DNA of 5,659 nt from a virus (Duplodnaviria > Heunggongvirae > Uroviricota > Caudoviricetes), in IMG/VR virus record IMGVR_UViG_2671181127_000006, positions 1 to 5,659 of that record; one strand, written 5' to 3'. This document shows, in pieces, positions 1 through 5,659 of this stretch. Below the pieces are notes generated by a model. It had not been told where the DNA came from and did no database searches. It saw nothing but the letters and a program-made list of their open reading frames with translations. The translations under genes were made by a program, and so were the position numbers. Each line of letters opens with the position of its first letter. The stretch's first letter is position 1.

Positions 1-3000
1 GCTTTGAGTCCTCCGGGGCGGAAACCGCACTGGGCGTGGAGGTGACGAAGGCAAAGCCGGTGACGCGCACCATCACGTCAGCGAACATTGACCGTCTGCG
101 GGTGACCTTCGGGGTGCAGTCACTGGTGGAGACCACCTCAAAGGGTGACCGTAACCCGACGTCTGTCCGCCTGCTGATTCAGCTTGAGCGTGGTGGTAAA
201 TGGATGACGGAAAAGGATGTCACCATTAACGGCAAGACCACCTCGCAGTTCCTGGCGTCGGTGATTCTGGATAATCTGCCGCCCCGGCCCTTTAACATCC
301 GGATGGTCAGGGAGACGGCGGACAGCACCACGGACCAGCTGCAGAATAAGACGCTCTGGTCGTCATACACCGAAATCATCGATGTGAAACAGTGCTACCC
401 GAACACGGCCATTGTGGGGCTGCAGGTGGATGCGGAGCAGTTCGGTGGCCAGCAGATGACGGTGAACTACCATATCCGCGGTCGCATCATCCAGGTGCCG
501 TCAAACTATGACCCGGAAAAACGCACGTACAGTGGTATCTGGGACGGCAGTCTGAAACCGGCATACAGCAACAACCCGGCCTGGTGCCTGTGGGACATGC
601 TGACTCACCCGCGCTACGGGATGGGAAAACGCCTGGAGGCGGCGGATGTGGACAAGTGGGCGCTGTATGCCATCGGGCAGTACTGCGACCAGACGGTCCC
701 GGATGGTTTCGGGGGCACAGAGCCGCGGATGACCTTCAATGCGTACCTGGCACAACAGCGTAAGGCATGGGACGTGCTCAGTGATTTCTGCTCGGCGATG
801 CGCTGTATGCCGGTATGGAACGGCCAGACGCTGACGTTCGTTCAGGACCGCCCGTCGGATGTGGTGTGGCCGTACACCAACAGCGATGTTGTGGTGGATG
901 ACAACGGCGTGGGATTCCGCTACAGCTTCAGTGCCCTGAAGGACCGGCACACGGCGGTGGAGGTGAATTACACCGACCCGCAGAACGGCTGGCAGACCTC
1001 CACGGAACTGGTGGAAGACCCGGAAGCCATACTGCGCTACGGACGCAACCTGCTGAAGATGGACGCGTTCGGCTGCACCAGTCGCGGTCAGGCTCACCGT
1101 GCCGGGCTGTGGGTGATAAAGACGGAACTGCTGGAAACACAGACGGTGGATTTCACGCTCGGGTCACAGGGGCTGCGTCACACGCCGGGTGACATCATTG
1201 AAATCTGTGATAACGACTACGCCGGGACCCTGACCGGCGGACGCATTCTGGCCATCGATGCCGCCAGCCGTACCCTGACGCTGGACCGTGAGGTGACACT
1301 CCCGGAGACGGGGACATCGACGGTGAACCTGATTAACGGCAGCGGTAAGCCGGTGAGTGTGGACATTACCGCACACCCTGCGCCTGACCGGATACAGGTC
1401 AGCCCCCTGCCGGATGGCGTGGAGACATACGGGGTATGGGGACTGAAAATGCCCGGTCTTCGCCGTCGCCTGTTCCGCTGTGTGGCCATCCGGGAAAACA
1501 CGGACGGCACCTTTGCCGTTACGGCGGTGCAGCACGTACCGGAAAAAGAAGCCATCGTGGATAACGGGGCCCGCTTTGAGCCGCAGTCAGGCACCCTGAA
1601 CAGCGTTATCCCACCGGCAGTGCAGCACCTGACGGTGGAGGTGAGCGCAGCTGACAGTCAGTATCTGGCGCTGGCGAAATGGGACACGCCGAGGGTGGTG
1701 AAGGGCGTGCGCTTCAGTCTGCGCCTGACCAGTGGAAGCGGTGAGAACAGCCGCCTGCTGACCACCGCCATCACTGCCGGTACGGAGCACCGTTTCAGTG
1801 GCCTGCCTCTCGGGGAATACACCCTGACGGTCAGGGCGATTAACAGCTATGGCCAGCAGGGCGAACCCGCCACCACCACGTTCCGGATTAACGCACCGGC
1901 AGCGCCTGCCGGTGTTGAACTGACGCCGGGGTATTTTCAGATAACGGCAGTCCCGAAACTGACCATTTATGACCCGACGGTGCAGTTTGAGTTCTGGTTT
2001 TCGGAGGCAAAAATTGCAGACGCCGCACAGGTGGAAACCTCTGCCCGTTATCTGGGGACCGGCAGTCAGTGGAGTGTCTCCGGTCCGCACATTAAGCCCG
2101 GAAAGGATTTCTGGTTTTATGTGCGCAGCGTCAACCTGGTGGGTAAATCTGCTTTTGTGGAAGCCAGTGGACGGGCGAGCAATGATGCTGCGGGCTATCT
2201 GGAACTTTTCCGGGAAAAGATAGGAAAAACGCATCTGGCAGAGGCGCTGTGGGCAGAGATTGACAACAGTCAGCTGAAGGACGAGATGGCGGAAATGCAG
2301 ACCACCATCACAGAAACCCGCAATGAAATCACGCAGACGGTCAGTAAAACGCTGGAGGACCAGAACGCCACCATACAGCAAATCCAGCGTGTGCAGACGG
2401 ACACAAATAATGACCTGAACAGCATGTGGGCGGTGAAGCTACAGCAGATGCAGGATGGTCGTCGCTATATTGCCGGTATCGGTGCCGGTATTGAGAACAC
2501 CCCTGACGGGATGCAGAGCCAGATACTGCTGGCAGCGGACCGTGTGGCATTCATTAATCCGGAGAATGGTGATACCACACCCGCACTGGTCACGCAGGGG
2601 GGACAGACGTTTATCAATGAGGCCCTGATAAAGGTTCTTACCGCCCCCACCATTACCAGCGGCGGCAATCCCCCGGCATTCTCCCTGACGCCGGACGGCA
2701 GGCTGACGGCCCGTAATGCCGATATCAGCGGGAATATCAGTGCCAGTTCCGGTACGCTGAATAACGTGACGATTGCGGAAGACTGCACCATTAATGGAAC
2801 GATGAGCGCTGACCGAATCATTGGTGATATCGTCAAGGGATACACGGTTGATATGGGGCAGGGCGTAATGACTCAGAACCAGCTGACTTTTCAGAAAATG
2901 ATTTTGCTGAAAGACAACATGCCGTTTGATCGCAAGCTTATGCTTATGGCGTATTCATTTTCCAGAGGTGAATTCATCATGAAGATAAATGACAAAGTTG

Positions 3001-3293
3001 TCGTTCATGCCAGGTCAGGCAAAGTCAAAACCGGGGAGCGGGAGGTCCAGATTTCCAAAAACGCCAGCAGATATGAGCCGGTATATTCTGATGTTGGCGG
3101 AAGTGCGTCAGGCTCATGGAGTATTCCTGCCGGACAGGGTGATGTGCGGGTTGAAATTACATTCAGGTATGAAGCAGATGTGCTTTTTTACATGGGTGGT
3201 TCAATACTTCATGATAAGAGTAAAATTCGGATCCATGACCCGGTTCTGTTTTACCTGAAATCCTATACAGACGATTTTGATACCGCATCGTGA
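1..3293 (+). CDS. J: Host specificity / tip attachment protein J (central tail fibre), 5'-partial; stop TGA at 3291-3293
   Basis: The frame is open from nt 3 (codons 3,6,9...) with no stop until 3291, so the GTG at 36 in the ORF track is not the real start and the gene begins upstream of the window. The translation (FESSGAETALGVEVTKAKPVTRTITSANIDRL..., NNPAWCLWDMLTHPRYGMGKRL, KWALYAIGQYCDQTVPDGFGGTEPR, DFCSAMRCMPVWNGQTLTFVQDRPSD, AFGCTSRGQAHRAGLWVIKTELLETQTVDF, LTAPTITSGGNPPAFSLTPDG) matches, from memory, long conserved stretches of phage lambda gpJ. The single 1085-codon ORF has coding-like composition. Confidence 0.9.
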   Translation, partial: FESSGAETALGVEVTKAKPVTRTITSANIDRLRVTFGVQSLVETTSKGDRNPTSVRLLIQLERGGKWMTEKDVTINGKTTSQFLASVILDNLPPRPFNIRMVRETADSTTDQLQNKTLWSSYTEIIDVKQCYPNTAIVGLQVDAEQFGGQQMTVNYHIRGRIIQVPSNYDPEKRTYSGIWDGSLKPAYSNNPAWCLWDMLTHPRYGMGKRLEAADVDKWALYAIGQYCDQTVPDGFGGTEPRMTFNAYLAQQRKAWDVLSDFCSAMRCMPVWNGQTLTFVQDRPSDVVWPYTNSDVVVDDNGVGFRYSFSALKDRHTAVEVNYTDPQNGWQTSTELVEDPEAILRYGRNLLKMDAFGCTSRGQAHRAGLWVIKTELLETQTVDFTLGSQGLRHTPGDIIEICDNDYAGTLTGGRILAIDAASRTLTLDREVTLPETGTSTVNLINGSGKPVSVDITAHPAPDRIQVSPLPDGVETYGVWGLKMPGLRRRLFRCVAIRENTDGTFAVTAVQHVPEKEAIVDNGARFEPQSGTLNSVIPPAVQHLTVEVSAADSQYLALAKWDTPRVVKGVRFSLRLTSGSGENSRLLTTAITAGTEHRFSGLPLGEYTLTVRAINSYGQQGEPATTTFRINAPAAPAGVELTPGYFQITAVPKLTIYDPTVQFEFWFSEAKIADAAQVETSARYLGTGSQWSVSGPHIKPGKDFWFYVRSVNLVGKSAFVEASGRASNDAAGYLELFREKIGKTHLAEALWAEIDNSQLKDEMAEMQTTITETRNEITQTVSKTLEDQNATIQQIQRVQTDTNNDLNSMWAVKLQQMQDGRRYIAGIGAGIENTPDGMQSQILLAADRVAFINPENGDTTPALVTQGGQTFINEALIKVLTAPTITSGGNPPAFSLTPDGRLTARNADISGNISASSGTLNNVTIAEDCTINGTMSADRIIGDIVKGYTVDMGQGVMTQNQLTFQKMILLKDNMPFDRKLMLMAYSFSRGEFIMKINDKVVVHARSGKVKTGEREVQISKNASRYEPVYSDVGGSASGSWSIPAGQGDVRVEITFRYEADVLFYMGGSILHDKSKIRIHDPVLFYLKSYTDDFDTAS
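1611..2175 (+). other. Two tandem fibronectin type III-like (Ig-like) domains inside J
   Basis: Two consecutive ~90-aa segments with a beta-sandwich-like pattern: PPAVQHLTVEVSA...WDTPRVVKGVRFSLRLT...EYTLTVRAINSYGQQGEPATTTFRI and PAGVELTPGYFQITAVPKLTIYDPTVQFEFWFSE...KDFWFYVRSVNLVGKSAFVEA. FN3 domains are established in lambda gpJ. Boundaries are approximate and assigned by eye. Confidence 0.4.
2838..3290 (+). other. Divergent C-terminal distal module of J (putative receptor-binding domain)
   Basis: Recalled similarity to lambda gpJ runs through ...CTINGTMSADRIIGDIVK (ending nt 2837) and is then lost; the last ~151 aa (GYTVDMGQGVMTQNQLTFQKMILLKDNMPFDRKLML...YLKSYTDDFDTAS) do not resemble the lambda LamB-binding C-terminus. 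Composition drops: hand count gives about 35% GC for nt 2941-3000 against about 58% for nt 1201-1260 in the conserved body. Confidence 0.5.
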
Positions 3294-3430: not shown

Positions 3431-3464
3431 CGCAGACCGGGTAACCGGTACTGCGGTTTTTTTT
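3431..3464 (+). terminator. Putative rho-independent terminator between J and the tail-fibre gene
   Basis: CGCAGACCGG (3431-3440), GTAA loop (GNRA-type), CCGGTaCTGCG (3445-3455): a ~10-bp GC-rich stem with one bulged A, then G and an uninterrupted T8 run (3457-3464). Pairing was checked base by base. Confidence 0.6.
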
Positions 3465-3477: not shown

Positions 3478-3750
3478 ATGACAGTCAGAATATCGGGCGT
3501 GCTGAAGGACGGCACCGGGAAGCCGGTGCCGGGATGCACCATAGAGCTGAAAGCGCGACGCACCACAGAGACAGTGATAGTCACCACGGTGGCGCAGGGG
3601 CAGCCGGGGGAAACCGGCAGTTACAGTTTTGATGTGGAGCCGGGGTGGTACCGGGTGACGCTGAACACGGAAGGGTACGCCCCGTCGTATGTGGGTGACA
3701 TTCTGGTGAAGGCGGATTCTGAGCCGGGAACGCTGAATAAATTTCTGATG
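3478..3750 (+). other. Conserved N-terminal domain of side tail fibre (probable tail-attachment domain)
   Basis: The first ~90 aa align with the lambda Stf N-terminus, including GTLN.FL near residue 84-90. An Ala/Glu/Lys-rich predicted helical linker ([34 protein letters not shown]) follows and leads into the collagen block. Confidence 0.5.
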
Positions 3751-4944
3751 GAACAGGATGAGGCGCAGTATTACCCGAAAGCGCTTGCAGAGCTGGAAGC
3801 GGTGGCAGCGGAAATCCTGAAGCGTGCTGAAGCGTCGGCGGCGAGTGCAGAGGAAGCGAAGAAACGGGCAGAGAATGCCCGGGGACCGGCGGGCGAGAAG
3901 GGGGACACAGGTCCACAGGGTGCCACAGGGGCACAGGGACCAGCCGGGGCAACGGGGGCGGTCGGACCAAAAGGTGAGCCGGGGCCAAAGGGAGAACGGG
4001 GAGAAACAGGTCCACAGGGACCGAAGGGCGATAAAGGTGACCCGGGCGGACCGCCGGGGCCGAAAGGTGACACCGGCCCACGTGGAGAGGCCGGACCACC
4101 CGGACCACAGGGTCCGGCAGGGCAAACCGGCCCGAAAGGGGATAAAGGTGAACCCGGCGCAACAGGTCCGGCAGGTCCCGCAGGCCCTCGGGGAGAAACC
4201 GGCCCCGCAGGTCCTGCGGGTCCCGCAGGCAGTGTCGCCAGTGTTCCGGATGCCAGCACATCACAGAAAGGTGTTGTACAGCTGAGCAGCGATACCAACA
4301 GCGATGATGAAACAAAAGCGGCAACCCCAAAGGCTGTGAAAGCGGTAATGGCAGAAGTGCAGGCAGCAAAAACGAAGGCAGAAGAGGCAGCAACCCGGGC
4401 AGCAGTCCCCGGACCGAAGGGGGACAGGGGGGAACCTGGCGCACCTGGTGCAGTGGGGCCCGCAGGCCCACGGGGACCGGCTGGTGCAGCTGGTCCCAAA
4501 GGTGATGCAGGCCCGGCAGGCCCCGCAGGAAAGGATGGTACCGCCGGAGCGGAAGGTAAGGCAGGTCCGGCAGGGCCACGAGGTGAAAGGGGACCAGCGG
4601 GGGCACAGGGTGTTCCGGGGCCGGTTGGTCCGGCAGGTCCTGCGGGTAAAACGGGGCCACAGGGCCCTGCCGGAGAGCGAGGGCCGATGGGACCGCCCGG
4701 GCCAGCAGGTGATGCAGGGAATGGCGTTATAAAAGGCATTCGGCTGGGAAATGAGAGCGTGTTTCGTCCACATGAAGGCTATATCAACTGGGATATACGC
4801 TTGACGGATGGCAGTGTGCTTACGGGAGTGGTGGGAATGAATGCGTCAGGGACAAACCGGATAAATGAAATCTATTACAGGCCGTTACAGATAACAACAG
4901 ATGGCGTTTACTGGCGTACTATTGGCATTGATAATGGTATGTGA
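3478..4944 (+). CDS. stf: Side tail fibre protein with collagen-like Gly-X-Y repeats (lambda Stf-like N-terminus)
   Basis: ATG at 3478 with upstream GGGAG, 488 codons, stop TGA at 4942-4944. N-terminus [26 protein letters not shown]... matches from memory the lambda Stf N-terminus ([26 protein letters not shown]...). It contains two long perfect (Gly-X-Y)n blocks and the conserved tail-fibre motif [27 protein letters not shown]. Confidence 0.9.
3883..4227 (+). repeat. Collagen-like Gly-X-Y block 1 (18 triplets, one extra Gly, then 20 triplets)
   Basis: Read directly from the translation: [116 protein letters not shown]. The DNA is a low-complexity GGN-CCN repeat. Confidence 0.85.
4255..4350 (+). 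other. Phage tail-fibre repeat motif between the two collagen blocks
   Basis: [32 protein letters not shown] resembles, from memory, the conserved lambda Stf motif (..[29 protein letters not shown]), the Phage_fiber_2-type repeat. It is followed by an Ala/Glu/Lys-rich helix ([18 protein letters not shown]). Confidence 0.5.
4411..4725 (+). repeat. Collagen-like Gly-X-Y block 2 (35 uninterrupted triplets)
   Basis: [105 protein letters not shown], with glycine at every third position throughout. Confidence 0.85.
4726..4941 (+). other. Small C-terminal tip domain of the collagen-like fibre (function unknown, putative receptor-binding or trimerisation knob)
   Basis: The 72-aa non-collagenous tail [72 protein letters not shown] is rich in aromatic and beta-branched residues. 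Its DNA is visibly less GC-rich than the collagen stalk. Confidence 0.4.
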
Positions 4945-5202
4945 GCAGATTATACCATCCTTACCGGATGAGATATAAAAGTTAAAAGAGGAAATGTCGG
5001 GTTAGCATCTTTCTGATTCGTCCGGCTGATATCACCACGCCATATGTTTACGCTGAACATGGCGGATAAAAAGACGGGGGAGCAGGCAGCAGACTCCCCT
5101 GAAAGTTATCCCTGTCATTTTTACATTTTTATTCTGTGTCACGGTTACACATATTTTCCCGAATAACCACTACTGATACTTACCGTATTCTGGTGATTAT
5201 TT

Positions 5203-5232
5203 TTGTGATGTGAACTGCATTTTATTTATAAA
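5203..5232 (+). promoter_or_regulatory. Candidate sigma70-like promoter upstream of the tfa-like gene
   Basis: TTGTGA (5203-5208), 18-nt spacer, TATAAA (5227-5232), inside an AT-rich spacer about 60 nt upstream of the ATG at 5294. Found by eye only; AT-rich DNA yields many such matches. Confidence 0.2.
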
Positions 5233-5278
5233 GAGCAAACAGATTAACAGCCGCGCGTTTTACTGTGCAGTGCTGCGA

Positions 5279-5283
5279 AAGGG
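5279..5283 (+). promoter_or_regulatory. Possible Shine-Dalgarno sequence for the tfa-like gene
   Basis: AAGGG lies 10 nt upstream of the ATG at 5294; the spacing is slightly long. Confidence 0.35.
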
Positions 5284-5293
5284 TAACGGATTT

Positions 5294-5659
5294 ATGATTA
5301 TTAAAAAATTCACGCTGTATTCCCCGGAGAAGGCAGATGTCCCCGGGGCAATGTATCTGAAGTCAGAAGACGGCAGGGACTGGTATGAAAGCCAGTCTTT
5401 ATTTTCAGCAGATACGCTGAAGGTGGCTTATGACAGTAACGGAATAATCTGCGGTATAAGCAAGGATGTATCTGTTATGTGGCCTGTTAACATGAGTGTT
5501 GCAGAAGTGCCTGATTCGGAGGAAAACCGCAAGGCAGACAGCTCAGGGCGCTGGAAGTTTGACGGGGAGCGAATAGTCGACACACTGACAGCGGAGAAAG
5601 CACGCGGGCTGAAGGGAGATGAAATCAACGCTTGGCGTAATGCGATGGAAGCGGCGAAC
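5294..5659 (+). CDS. tfa: Tail fibre assembly protein (Tfa-type chaperone), 3'-partial
   Basis: ATG at 5294 opens a frame that runs to the window end without a stop, which is why it is absent from the ORF track. Translation by hand: MIIKKFTLYSPEKADVPGAMYLKSEDGRDWYESQSLFSADTLKVAYDSNGIICGISKDVSVMWPVNMSVAEVPDSEENRKADSSGRWKFDGERIVDTLTAEKARGLKGDEINAWRNAMEAAN. The pattern SEDG..WYE ... DT.K..YD.N ... EVPD...NR.AD.SG.W.F matches, from memory, enterobacterial prophage Tfa proteins (TfaE-like, phage tail fibre assembly family). Confidence 0.65.
   Translation, partial: MIIKKFTLYSPEKADVPGAMYLKSEDGRDWYESQSLFSADTLKVAYDSNGIICGISKDVSVMWPVNMSVAEVPDSEENRKADSSGRWKFDGERIVDTLTAEKARGLKGDEINAWRNAMEAAN

What the first reader, a model, noticed from the sequence alone, without database searches (positions are those of the whole stretch)
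4945..5293. AT-rich 350-bp non-coding spacer between the fibre gene and tfa: likely mosaic junction with its own promoter
Tfa chaperone genes normally follow their fibre gene closely, but here a ~350-bp spacer intervenes. It is about 33% GC in a sampled stretch, far below the flanking genes, and contains a sigma70-like TTGTGA-N18-TATAAA (5203-5232) and a GGGGAG...CTCCCC hairpin (5084-5100 region). This fits a recombination junction where a different distal fibre/chaperone cassette was joined, or a regulatory region allowing independent chaperone expression. It could also be the edge of an invertible or exchangeable host-range cassette, but no recombinase or second repeat is visible to support that.
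Basis: partly seen in the sequence, partly recalled or inferred. Interest (0 to 1): 0.45.

Follow-up and report, generated by a model that had tools for sequence, protein, structure and literature searches.

The report
Prophage fibre–chaperone spacer with backward terminator
The 349-base gap between a prophage tail-fibre gene and its chaperone gene is real, non-coding and AT-rich, but its only conserved feature is a hairpin that reads as a transcription stop signal on the opposite strand, not the suggested promoter, so it is a fairly ordinary piece of phage gene-module architecture.

Summary
The spacer (4945-5293, 349 bp, 41% GC, minimum 26%) is real and non-coding. It lies in an E. coli lambdoid prophage between a collagen-like side fibre gene and a DUF4376/Tfa-like gene. 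It is not a fresh recombination junction. Homology to related phages breaks at about 4663, before the fibre tip, and again inside tfa. The spacer travels with a rare fibre-tip module. Only two versions were found anywhere: this one (10 of 5426 E. coli genomes, all identical) and a 271-bp sister version in 933W-like podovirus prophages.

Flanking synonymous sites are near saturation (dS 0.85-1.6), and the two spacers align in only one clear block. That block is an A-tract plus a GC-rich stem-loop (5066-5101). The stems are kept, the loops differ in sequence and by one base in length, and one outer pair changes on both sides. On the minus strand this reads as an intrinsic terminator.

The TTGTGA-N18-TATAAA motif is at the stated coordinates, but it occurs at chance frequency and is not conserved as a pair. 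No invertase, crossover site or inverted fibre fragment is present.

Best reading: a conserved stop for leftward (antisense) transcription, possibly the 3' end of a short non-coding RNA. Low interest.

The parts
3478..4944 (+). Side tail fibre gene, 488 aa: prophage tail-fibre N-terminal domain, collagen-like repeats and a short C-terminal tip.
   Evidence: ORF. Pfam PF08400, Collagen and Phage_fiber_2.
4664..4944 (+). Rare fibre-tip module (51.6% GC). Similarity to PhiR12-type phages stops at 4663.
   Evidence: The only relatives found are the L011-type tip (59% aa, 75% nt) and the 1720a-02 type (40% aa).
4945..5293 (.). Non-coding AT-rich spacer, 349 bp, 41% GC.
   Evidence: It is 100% identical in 10 E. 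coli genomes and 4 metagenome contigs. It is absent from the phage and plasmid collections.
5066..5072 (-). A-tract ATAAAAA on the + strand, which is the U-tract (UUUUUAU) of the minus-strand terminator.
   Evidence: Shared 7-mer with the sister spacer at the same position relative to the stem.
5075..5101 (-). Conserved GC-rich stem-loop. On the minus strand: CA-GGGGAGU-loop-GCUCCCC-CG, followed by UCUUUUUAU.
   Evidence: The homologous hairpin in L011 (3794-3821) is the top terminator-like hit on the minus strand, with 11 pairs followed by TTTTTATG.
5203..5232 (+).
   Evidence: Present, but at chance frequency and not conserved in spacing.
5187..5214 (-). Minus-strand sigma70-like motif TTCACA-N16-CAGAAT, 91 nt upstream of the hairpin. 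Candidate start of a leftward RNA of about 115 nt.
   Evidence: It is weak (9 of 12 matches) and not positionally conserved in L011.
5294..5659 (+). 5' part of the DUF4376/Tfa-like gene. The full gene is 223 aa and continues beyond the window.
   Evidence: Similarity to relatives starts at the ATG.

Best explanation
The spacer is an old, integral, non-coding part of a rare exchangeable distal-fibre module made of the tip domain, the spacer and the 5' third of tfa. This module occurs in both lambda-like and 933W-like E. coli prophages.

The functional core of the spacer is the A-tract plus GC-rich stem-loop at 5066-5101. On the complementary strand this forms a Rho-independent terminator. I infer that it stops leftward (antisense) transcription before it runs into the fibre gene. 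That transcription would arise in the AT-rich right half of the spacer, in tfa, or in the accessory Eib region further right. The hairpin is then either the 3' end of a short leftward non-coding transcript of roughly 45-115 nt or a plain insulator.

Rightward late transcription, which in lambdoid phages is Q-antiterminated (established knowledge), reads through to tfa. The spacer removes the close spacing seen in relatives, so tfa has to use its own, weaker ribosome-binding site.

Shown: the spacer is non-coding, the hairpin is present, the hairpin is conserved against a diverged background, and no conserved promoter exists.
Inferred: that the hairpin terminates transcription in vivo, and that a leftward transcript exists.
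For: Two spacer versions exist, 349 bp and 271 bp. Flanking coding DNA is near synonymous saturation: dS 0.85 in the tip and 1.56 in tfa codons 1-74.

The spacers are nonetheless homologous. Their local alignment scores 26, against 12 +/- 1.9 in 1000 shuffles with a maximum of 21. Nearly all of the signal is the block ATAAAAA..GGGGAGCAGG..ACTCCCC.

The stems and the A-tract are kept, while the loop differs in sequence and by one base in length. That length change shifts the reading frame of every ORF that crosses the hairpin. One outer pair changes on both sides: G.U in the window, C-G in L011.

On the minus strand the L011 hairpin is a canonical terminator of 11 pairs followed by TTTTTATG, at -25 kcal/mol. 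The window version is a 6-7 bp G+C stem followed by CGUCUUUUUAU. None of 3000 shuffles of the spacer gives such a site.

On the + strand no U-run follows the stem in either version.

Two strand-specific details favour the minus-strand RNA. The innermost pair is U.G on the minus strand but C/A on the plus strand in both versions. The L012 variant G3798A keeps a G.U pair only on the minus strand.

A non-homologous leftward terminator also lies immediately after a + strand DUF4376 gene, at the left edge of a long gap that precedes a second DUF4376 tfa, in L107.
Against: There are only two independent versions, so this is effectively one comparison.

No minus-strand promoter is conserved. The candidates lie 91 nt (window) and 24 nt (L011) from the hairpin and are weak.

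The window's terminator is imperfect: an A/C mismatch in the outer stem, a 9-11 nt loop, and four bases (CGUC) between the stem and the U5 run. Its hairpin is more stable on the plus strand (-21.5 kcal/mol) than on the minus strand (-13.5).

One wobble pair, the window's outer G.U, favours the plus strand.

Rfam gives no match, only sub-threshold noise. The whole spacer does not fold better than shuffles on either strand.

No expression data were available.
Confidence: 0.4

Rival explanations
1. The hairpin acts on the plus-strand late mRNA as an intercistronic stem-loop. It would act as a processing or decay barrier that sets different amounts of fibre and Tfa, for example through cleavage in the A-rich stretch that leaves tfa mRNA with a protective 5' stem-loop.
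For: The late operon certainly transcribes this strand. The stem forms 8 contiguous pairs on the plus strand in both versions, and the window's outer G.U pair exists only on this strand. The window hairpin is more stable on the plus strand, extended by GGATAA/TTATCC. Small G+C hairpins without T-runs also lie in the 63-bp and 68-bp fibre-tfa gaps of relatives.
Against: The conserved A-tract has no obvious role on this strand. The inner conserved T and G form a pair only on the minus strand, and the L012 variant breaks the plus-strand stem. Most relatives manage with 41 bp and no hairpin.
Confidence: 0.2
2. The spacer has no present function. It is leftover DNA carried with the fibre tip from a lower-GC donor phage in which a leftward gene converged on the fibre gene. 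The hairpin is that gene's old terminator.
For: The tip (52% GC) and spacer (41% GC) are lower in GC than the rest of the fibre (65%). The module is rare, in 18 of 5426 genomes. The dinI terminator at the prophage end has a similar form, GGGGAGC..GCTCCCC followed by a T-run. L107 shows that leftward terminators do lie at such boundaries. No conserved promoter was found.
Against: With dS near 1 in the flanks, a useless hairpin and A-tract should have decayed like the rest of the spacer. Instead 21 of the 23 stem and A-tract positions are identical, and the two that differ form one pair changed on both sides. No gene remnant is detectable.
Confidence: 0.25
3. One reading: the spacer is a recombination junction that carries its own sigma70 promoter (TTGTGA-N18-TATAAA) for independent tfa expression.
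For: The motif exists at 5203-5232. TTTTTGTGA and TTTTATTTA both recur, in the same order, in the sister spacer. tfa has a long leader and its own weak Shine-Dalgarno sequence. Genes expressed in lysogens, such as the Eib-like adhesin, lie downstream.
Against: The motif occurs at chance frequency. It was not reported by the consensus scan because it lacks T at position 6 of the -10 hexamer. The spacing between the two conserved motifs is 12 nt in the window and about 33 nt in L011. Breakpoints lie at 4663 and inside tfa, not in the spacer. Eib modules also follow tfa genes that have 41-, 63- and 233-bp gaps, so the spacer is not needed for them.
Confidence: 0.1
4. The spacer is the edge of an invertible or shufflon-like host-range cassette.
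For: Nothing beyond the general precedent of Mu, P1 and e14.
Against: No recombinase lies in the 8 kb beyond the window. No Din-type crossover site is present. No inverted copy of the tip or tfa is present.
Confidence: 0.01

Closest known systems
Lambda stf-tfa and related fibre/chaperone host-range modules of lambdoid phages
   Same: It has a distal fibre tip followed by a Tfa-like gene. The module is exchanged as a unit between unrelated phage backbones, here a siphovirus and a podovirus. Breakpoints lie inside the fibre gene and inside tfa.
   Different: The two genes are separated by 349 bp of non-coding AT-rich DNA instead of being adjacent. The chaperone is of the DUF4376 type, with only a sub-threshold Caudo_TAP match.
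Rho-independent (intrinsic) terminators, including orientation-specific ones inside or at the ends of phage operons
   Same: It has a G+C stem-loop followed by a U-run on the minus strand. The stems are conserved and the loop is variable.
   Different: It points against the surrounding genes. No upstream gene on that strand is visible. The window copy is sub-canonical, with a long loop and four bases (CGUC) between the stem and the U-run.
Morons of lambdoid phages, for example the reverse-oriented bor gene in the lambda late region (own knowledge)
   Same: It is an insert of deviating base composition between two conserved late genes, with a terminator of its own in reverse orientation.
   Different: It contains no ORF, and no convincing promoter was found. 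If it is a moron, it is a non-coding one.
Prophage-encoded small RNAs in tail regions, for example 24B_1 in the lom region of Stx phage Phi24B (PMC4426718)
   Same: The location is among the tail or accessory genes of an STEC prophage. A short non-coding transcript is possible.
   Different: There is no sequence or Rfam relationship. No transcript has been demonstrated here.

Membership tests
Intrinsic (Rho-independent) terminator, minus strand | G+C-rich stem-loop | tested here: met
   Window: GGGGAG(U)/(G)CUCCCC, 6-7 pairs. L011: 11 pairs, -25 kcal/mol.
Intrinsic (Rho-independent) terminator, minus strand | U-run directly 3' of the stem | tested here: met
   L011: UUUUUUAU directly after the stem. 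Window: CGUCUUUUUAU, with four bases (CGUC) before the U5 run. 0 of 3000 shuffles have an equivalent site.
Intrinsic (Rho-independent) terminator, minus strand | Lies at the 3' end of a transcription unit on that strand, and termination is observed | not testable with these tools
   No expression data. Only weak, non-conserved minus-strand promoter-like sites were found.
Sigma70 promoter for tfa | -35 and -10 hexamers at 16-18 nt spacing, above background | tested here: not met
   The motif is present (4/6 and 5/6 matches, N18), but sites of this quality are as frequent in shuffles.
Sigma70 promoter for tfa | Conserved in the homologous spacer | tested here: not met
   The motifs recur, but about 33 nt apart in L011.
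Din-family invertible host-range cassette (Gin/Cin/Pin type) | Adjacent serine invertase gene | tested here: not met
   The context in a complete genome shows none.
Din-family invertible host-range cassette (Gin/Cin/Pin type) | Crossover sites and an inverted alternative fibre C-terminus or tfa | tested here: not met
   No site within 3 mismatches. No inverted tip copy.
Any described RNA family (Rfam 15) | Covariance-model score at or above the gathering threshold | tested here: not met
   The best scores are 13-22 bits against thresholds of 38-79.
Moron (independent transcription unit inserted in a late operon) | Deviating composition, own terminator, own promoter, and a gene | tested here: inconclusive
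   Composition and terminator are met. The promoter is unclear. No conserved ORF exists.
Tail fibre assembly protein (the downstream gene) | Caudo_TAP and/or DUF4376 domains, full length, directly after a fibre gene | tested here: met
   DUF4376 scores 62.5 bits, above its cut-off. Caudo_TAP scores 20.3 bits, just below its 22.1 cut-off. The gene is 223 aa, the same length as in relatives.

The most novel reading that the evidence does not exclude
The conserved hairpin is the 3' end of an undescribed short leftward non-coding RNA. It would be carried by a rare fibre-tip cassette of STEC prophages, be complementary to the fibre-tfa intercistronic mRNA, and tune the expression of fibre, Tfa or the downstream Eib adhesin in lysogens or during induction.
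Probability: 0.2. Interest if true: 0.4.

Novelty: new member of a known kind. Interest (0 to 1): 0.2.

Why it matters
It matters little beyond annotation. The spacer in this fibre/chaperone module is an old, co-inherited part of the module, not a recent scar. A reverse-oriented terminator has been kept while everything around it diverged. If a leftward RNA is made here, it would be one more prophage-borne regulator in Shiga-toxin-producing E. coli, placed next to host-range genes and Eib adhesin genes. If not, the element is a simple insulator against antisense transcription.

Tried and rejected
1. Known RNA families. Rfam on the whole window and on both spacers gave nothing above noise.

2. 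Small proteins. All ORFs of at least 8 aa on both strands of both spacer versions were compared, and none is conserved. ORFs that cross the hairpin change frame between the two versions.

3. Gene remnants. Translated ORFs of neighbouring and related loci, including dinI, were compared with the spacers. Only self-matches appeared.

4. Copies elsewhere. None in the phage collection or the plasmid collection. In E. coli genomes only the same locus was found. The exact hairpin was absent from viral contigs. A degenerate hairpin pattern hit only unrelated organisms in species-representative genomes, and in viral contigs only the known loci plus what look like chance hits, which I did not inspect.

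5. More versions through the fibre tip. Viral contigs, species-representative genomes and metagenomes gave only the two known versions. The word-indexed protein search found nothing for the 74-aa tip.

6. Link to the Eib adhesin moron. Rejected, because Eib modules also follow tfa genes that have short gaps.

7. Invertible cassette. Rejected.

8. The long 233/236-bp 'gaps' in other relatives. These hold a small Tfa-N-like ORF at 55% GC and are a different thing.

9. The L107 gap of 509 bp. It looked like a third version but is a composite that contains a gp38-like remnant.

10. Global RNA structure of the spacer. Not better than shuffles on either strand.

11. Literature searches for small RNAs or terminators between fibre and tfa genes, and for eib prophage structure. 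Nothing relevant was found.

Full report
WHAT THE WINDOW IS

The window is the tail end of an E. coli lambdoid prophage. It holds the J tail-tip gene (36-3293) and a 184-bp gap. A side tail fibre gene follows at 3478-4944 (488 aa), with a prophage tail-fibre N-terminal domain, collagen-like repeats and a short tip. Then come the questioned gap (4945-5293) and the first 122 codons of a DUF4376/Tfa-like gene that starts at 5294.

The stretch 4700-5659 is 99.6-100% identical in 10 of 5426 complete E. coli genomes. In one of them (STEC2018-607, locus L001) the sequence continues with:
- a full-length tfa of 223 aa;
- a 358-bp gap;
- a YadA-like adhesin of the Eib family (EibD, 2xqh, E = 2e-72);
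- a 157-aa ORF;
- dinI on the other strand;
- the host genes yecD and aspS.

There is no recombinase. tfa is not truncated.

THE OBSERVATION

The gap is 349 bp. It is 41.3% GC overall, and 50-bp blocks range from 26% to 54%. The fibre gene is 62% GC and tfa about 50%.

In 50 or so relatives of this tfa recovered from viral contigs and E. coli genomes, the distance from the preceding gene is usually 41 bp, sometimes 63 or 68 bp. In distant relatives it is 6-19 bp. Gaps of 233/236 bp turned out to hold a small Tfa-N-like ORF at 55% GC, and the one 358-bp gap (L013) is 54% GC and looks like fibre coding sequence, probably a frameshift, though I did not check this. The long, AT-rich, ORF-free gap is therefore truly unusual.

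The TTGTGA-N18-TATAAA motif is at 5203-5232 as stated. Motifs of that quality occur as often in composition-matched shuffles: 2 observed on both strands against 1.25 +/- 1.14.

The hairpin is at 5075-5101.

IS IT A MOSAIC JUNCTION?

Similarity to the closest phages (PhiR12 series, 96-97%) ends at 4663. That is inside the fibre gene, where the collagen repeats give way to the tip. Similarity of tfa to the 41-bp-gap relatives begins at the ATG.

A sister cassette exists (L006, L009-L012, L104 and 8 E. coli genomes). It has the same tip family (59% aa, 75% nt), a 271-bp AT-rich gap and a tfa that is 89% identical. It sits in a 933W-like podovirus prophage, not a lambda-like one. The module therefore moves between phage types.

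Synonymous divergence between the two cassettes:

| Region | dS |
|---|---|
| Fibre tip | 0.85 |
| tfa codons 1-74 | 1.56 |
| tfa codons 75-148 | 0.31 |
| tfa codons 149-220 | 0.07 |

The tip, the spacer and the 5' third of tfa thus form one old block, and the recent exchange point is inside tfa. Within each version the spacer is invariant or nearly so, and no breakpoint falls in it. The spacer is a component of the variable module, not the seam.

WHAT IS CONSERVED

With flanking synonymous sites near saturation, neutral DNA should be unalignable, and most of the spacer is. Shared 7-mers number 13 against 7 +/- 3.6 by chance.

The two spacers are still homologous. Their local alignment scores 26 against 12 +/- 1.9 in 1000 shuffles, with a maximum of 21. 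Almost all of the signal comes from one block:

    window  GCGGATAAAAAGACGGGGGAGCAGGCAGCAGACTCCCCTGAAAG
    L011    GCGCATAAAAAACCGGGGAGCAGGGCGTTACTCCCCGGTAAAC

- The A-tract and both stem arms are kept.
- The loop differs at most positions and by one base in length. This shifts the frame of every ORF that crosses it, so the block is not coding.
- One outer stem pair changes on both sides: G.U in the window and C-G in L011.

WHICH STRAND

On the plus strand no U-run follows the stem in either version.

On the minus strand the L011 element is a textbook intrinsic terminator, with 11 pairs followed by TTTTTATG. It is the best terminator-like site in 7 kb, at -25 kcal/mol.

The window element is GGGGAGU..GCUCCCC followed by CGUCUUUUUAU. 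This is weaker, but no such site appears in 3000 shuffles of the spacer.

Strand-specific pairs split two to one for the minus strand:
- for the minus strand: a conserved inner U.G pair, and the L012 variant, which keeps a G.U pair only there;
- for the plus strand: the window's outer G.U pair.

The conserved A-tract is hard to explain except as the U-tract of the other strand.

A non-homologous leftward terminator (A9 plus a hairpin) also lies directly after a + strand DUF4376 gene, at the left edge of a long gap that precedes a second DUF4376 tfa, in L107. That gap is a composite containing a gp38-like remnant.

WHAT WOULD BE TERMINATED

No conserved minus-strand promoter was found. The window has TTCACA-N16-CAGAAT 91 nt upstream of the hairpin. 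L011 has an extended -10 (TGGTATCAT) 24 nt upstream. These would give RNAs of about 115 nt and about 45-55 nt with unrelated bodies.

Rfam gives only sub-threshold noise. The spacer as a whole is not unusually structured.

The existence of a discrete small RNA is therefore unproven. An insulator role is equally compatible: stopping antisense transcripts that arise in AT-rich DNA or further right.

VERDICT

My best reading (confidence about 0.4) is a conserved leftward intrinsic terminator inside an old non-coding spacer of a rare exchangeable fibre-tip module.

The rivals are:
- a plus-strand intercistronic mRNA hairpin (0.2);
- a functionless relic of a donor phage's convergent terminator (0.25), which the conservation argues against;
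- an invertible cassette, which is excluded.

This is a new instance of known kinds of element and is of low general interest. Strand-specific transcript end mapping in a lysogen would settle it.

Noticed in passing
window 3443-3458 (plus the T-run to 3466): A plus-strand terminator-like hairpin, AACCGGTACTGCGGTT followed by T8, sits directly before the fibre gene's ribosome-binding site and ATG (3478), in the 184-bp J-fibre gap. Some relatives (L003, L108, L109) carry a hok/gef gene in the equivalent gap.
   Followed up: no
window 4663; L002 (phage PhiR12_2): Similarity of 96-97% to the PhiR12 phages stops at 4663, at the transition from collagen repeats to the fibre tip. That is the left breakpoint of the host-range module.
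   Followed up: partly
window 5294-5659 and L001 8595-9266 against L011 4001-4666: There is a steep dS gradient inside tfa (1.56, then 0.31, then 0.07 from the 5' to the 3' third). This points to a recombination point within the chaperone gene: its N-terminal third co-evolves with the fibre tip, and its C-terminal part goes with the downstream module.
   Followed up: partly
L001 9625-11091 and 11178-11651: The YadA-like gene after tfa belongs to the Eib immunoglobulin-binding adhesin family (EibD, E = 2e-72). It is always followed by a conserved 157-aa ORF with no Pfam match. This pair follows DUF4376 tfa genes whatever the fibre-tfa gap length.
   Followed up: partly
L001 about 11725-11848 (+), abutting the dinI terminator at 11835-11853: An unannotated 40-aa hydrophobic ORF (MEQEKIRCGKRKYTAGAMCFMLFVWLGGVVTLCVLAALITQ) ends at the hairpin that also terminates the convergent dinI gene. 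A counterpart exists in L011. In the sister-type genome (L105) a 41-aa hypothetical CDS is annotated at about this position.
   Followed up: no
L001 6825-8245: In STEC2018-607 the same fibre gene is annotated as frameshifted. It carries 46 extra bases in the collagen-repeat region relative to the window, where the gene is intact.
   Followed up: no
L032-L046 class, for example L032 3768-4000; L108 2235-2459: In many relatives a 71-75-aa ORF resembling a Tfa N-terminus (MEQYVFSPS..NMFYP..) lies between the fibre gene and the DUF4376 gene. Those cassettes therefore have a two-gene chaperone arrangement.
   Followed up: no
window 4955-4969 and 5174-5188: Two small hairpins share the loop TTACC and have compensating stem differences: CATCC-ttacc-GGATG and GATAC-ttacc-GTATT. 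They are probably a chance two-copy repeat, and nothing equivalent is seen in the sister spacer.
   Followed up: partly
L107 1982-2490 (E. coli O170:H18): Two DUF4376 genes lie in tandem, separated by 509 bp. The gap begins with a strong leftward terminator (A9 plus CGGGAC..GTCCCG) and ends with the C-terminal remnant of a gp38-like receptor-recognising protein. It looks like a junction of two prophage remnants.
   Followed up: partly
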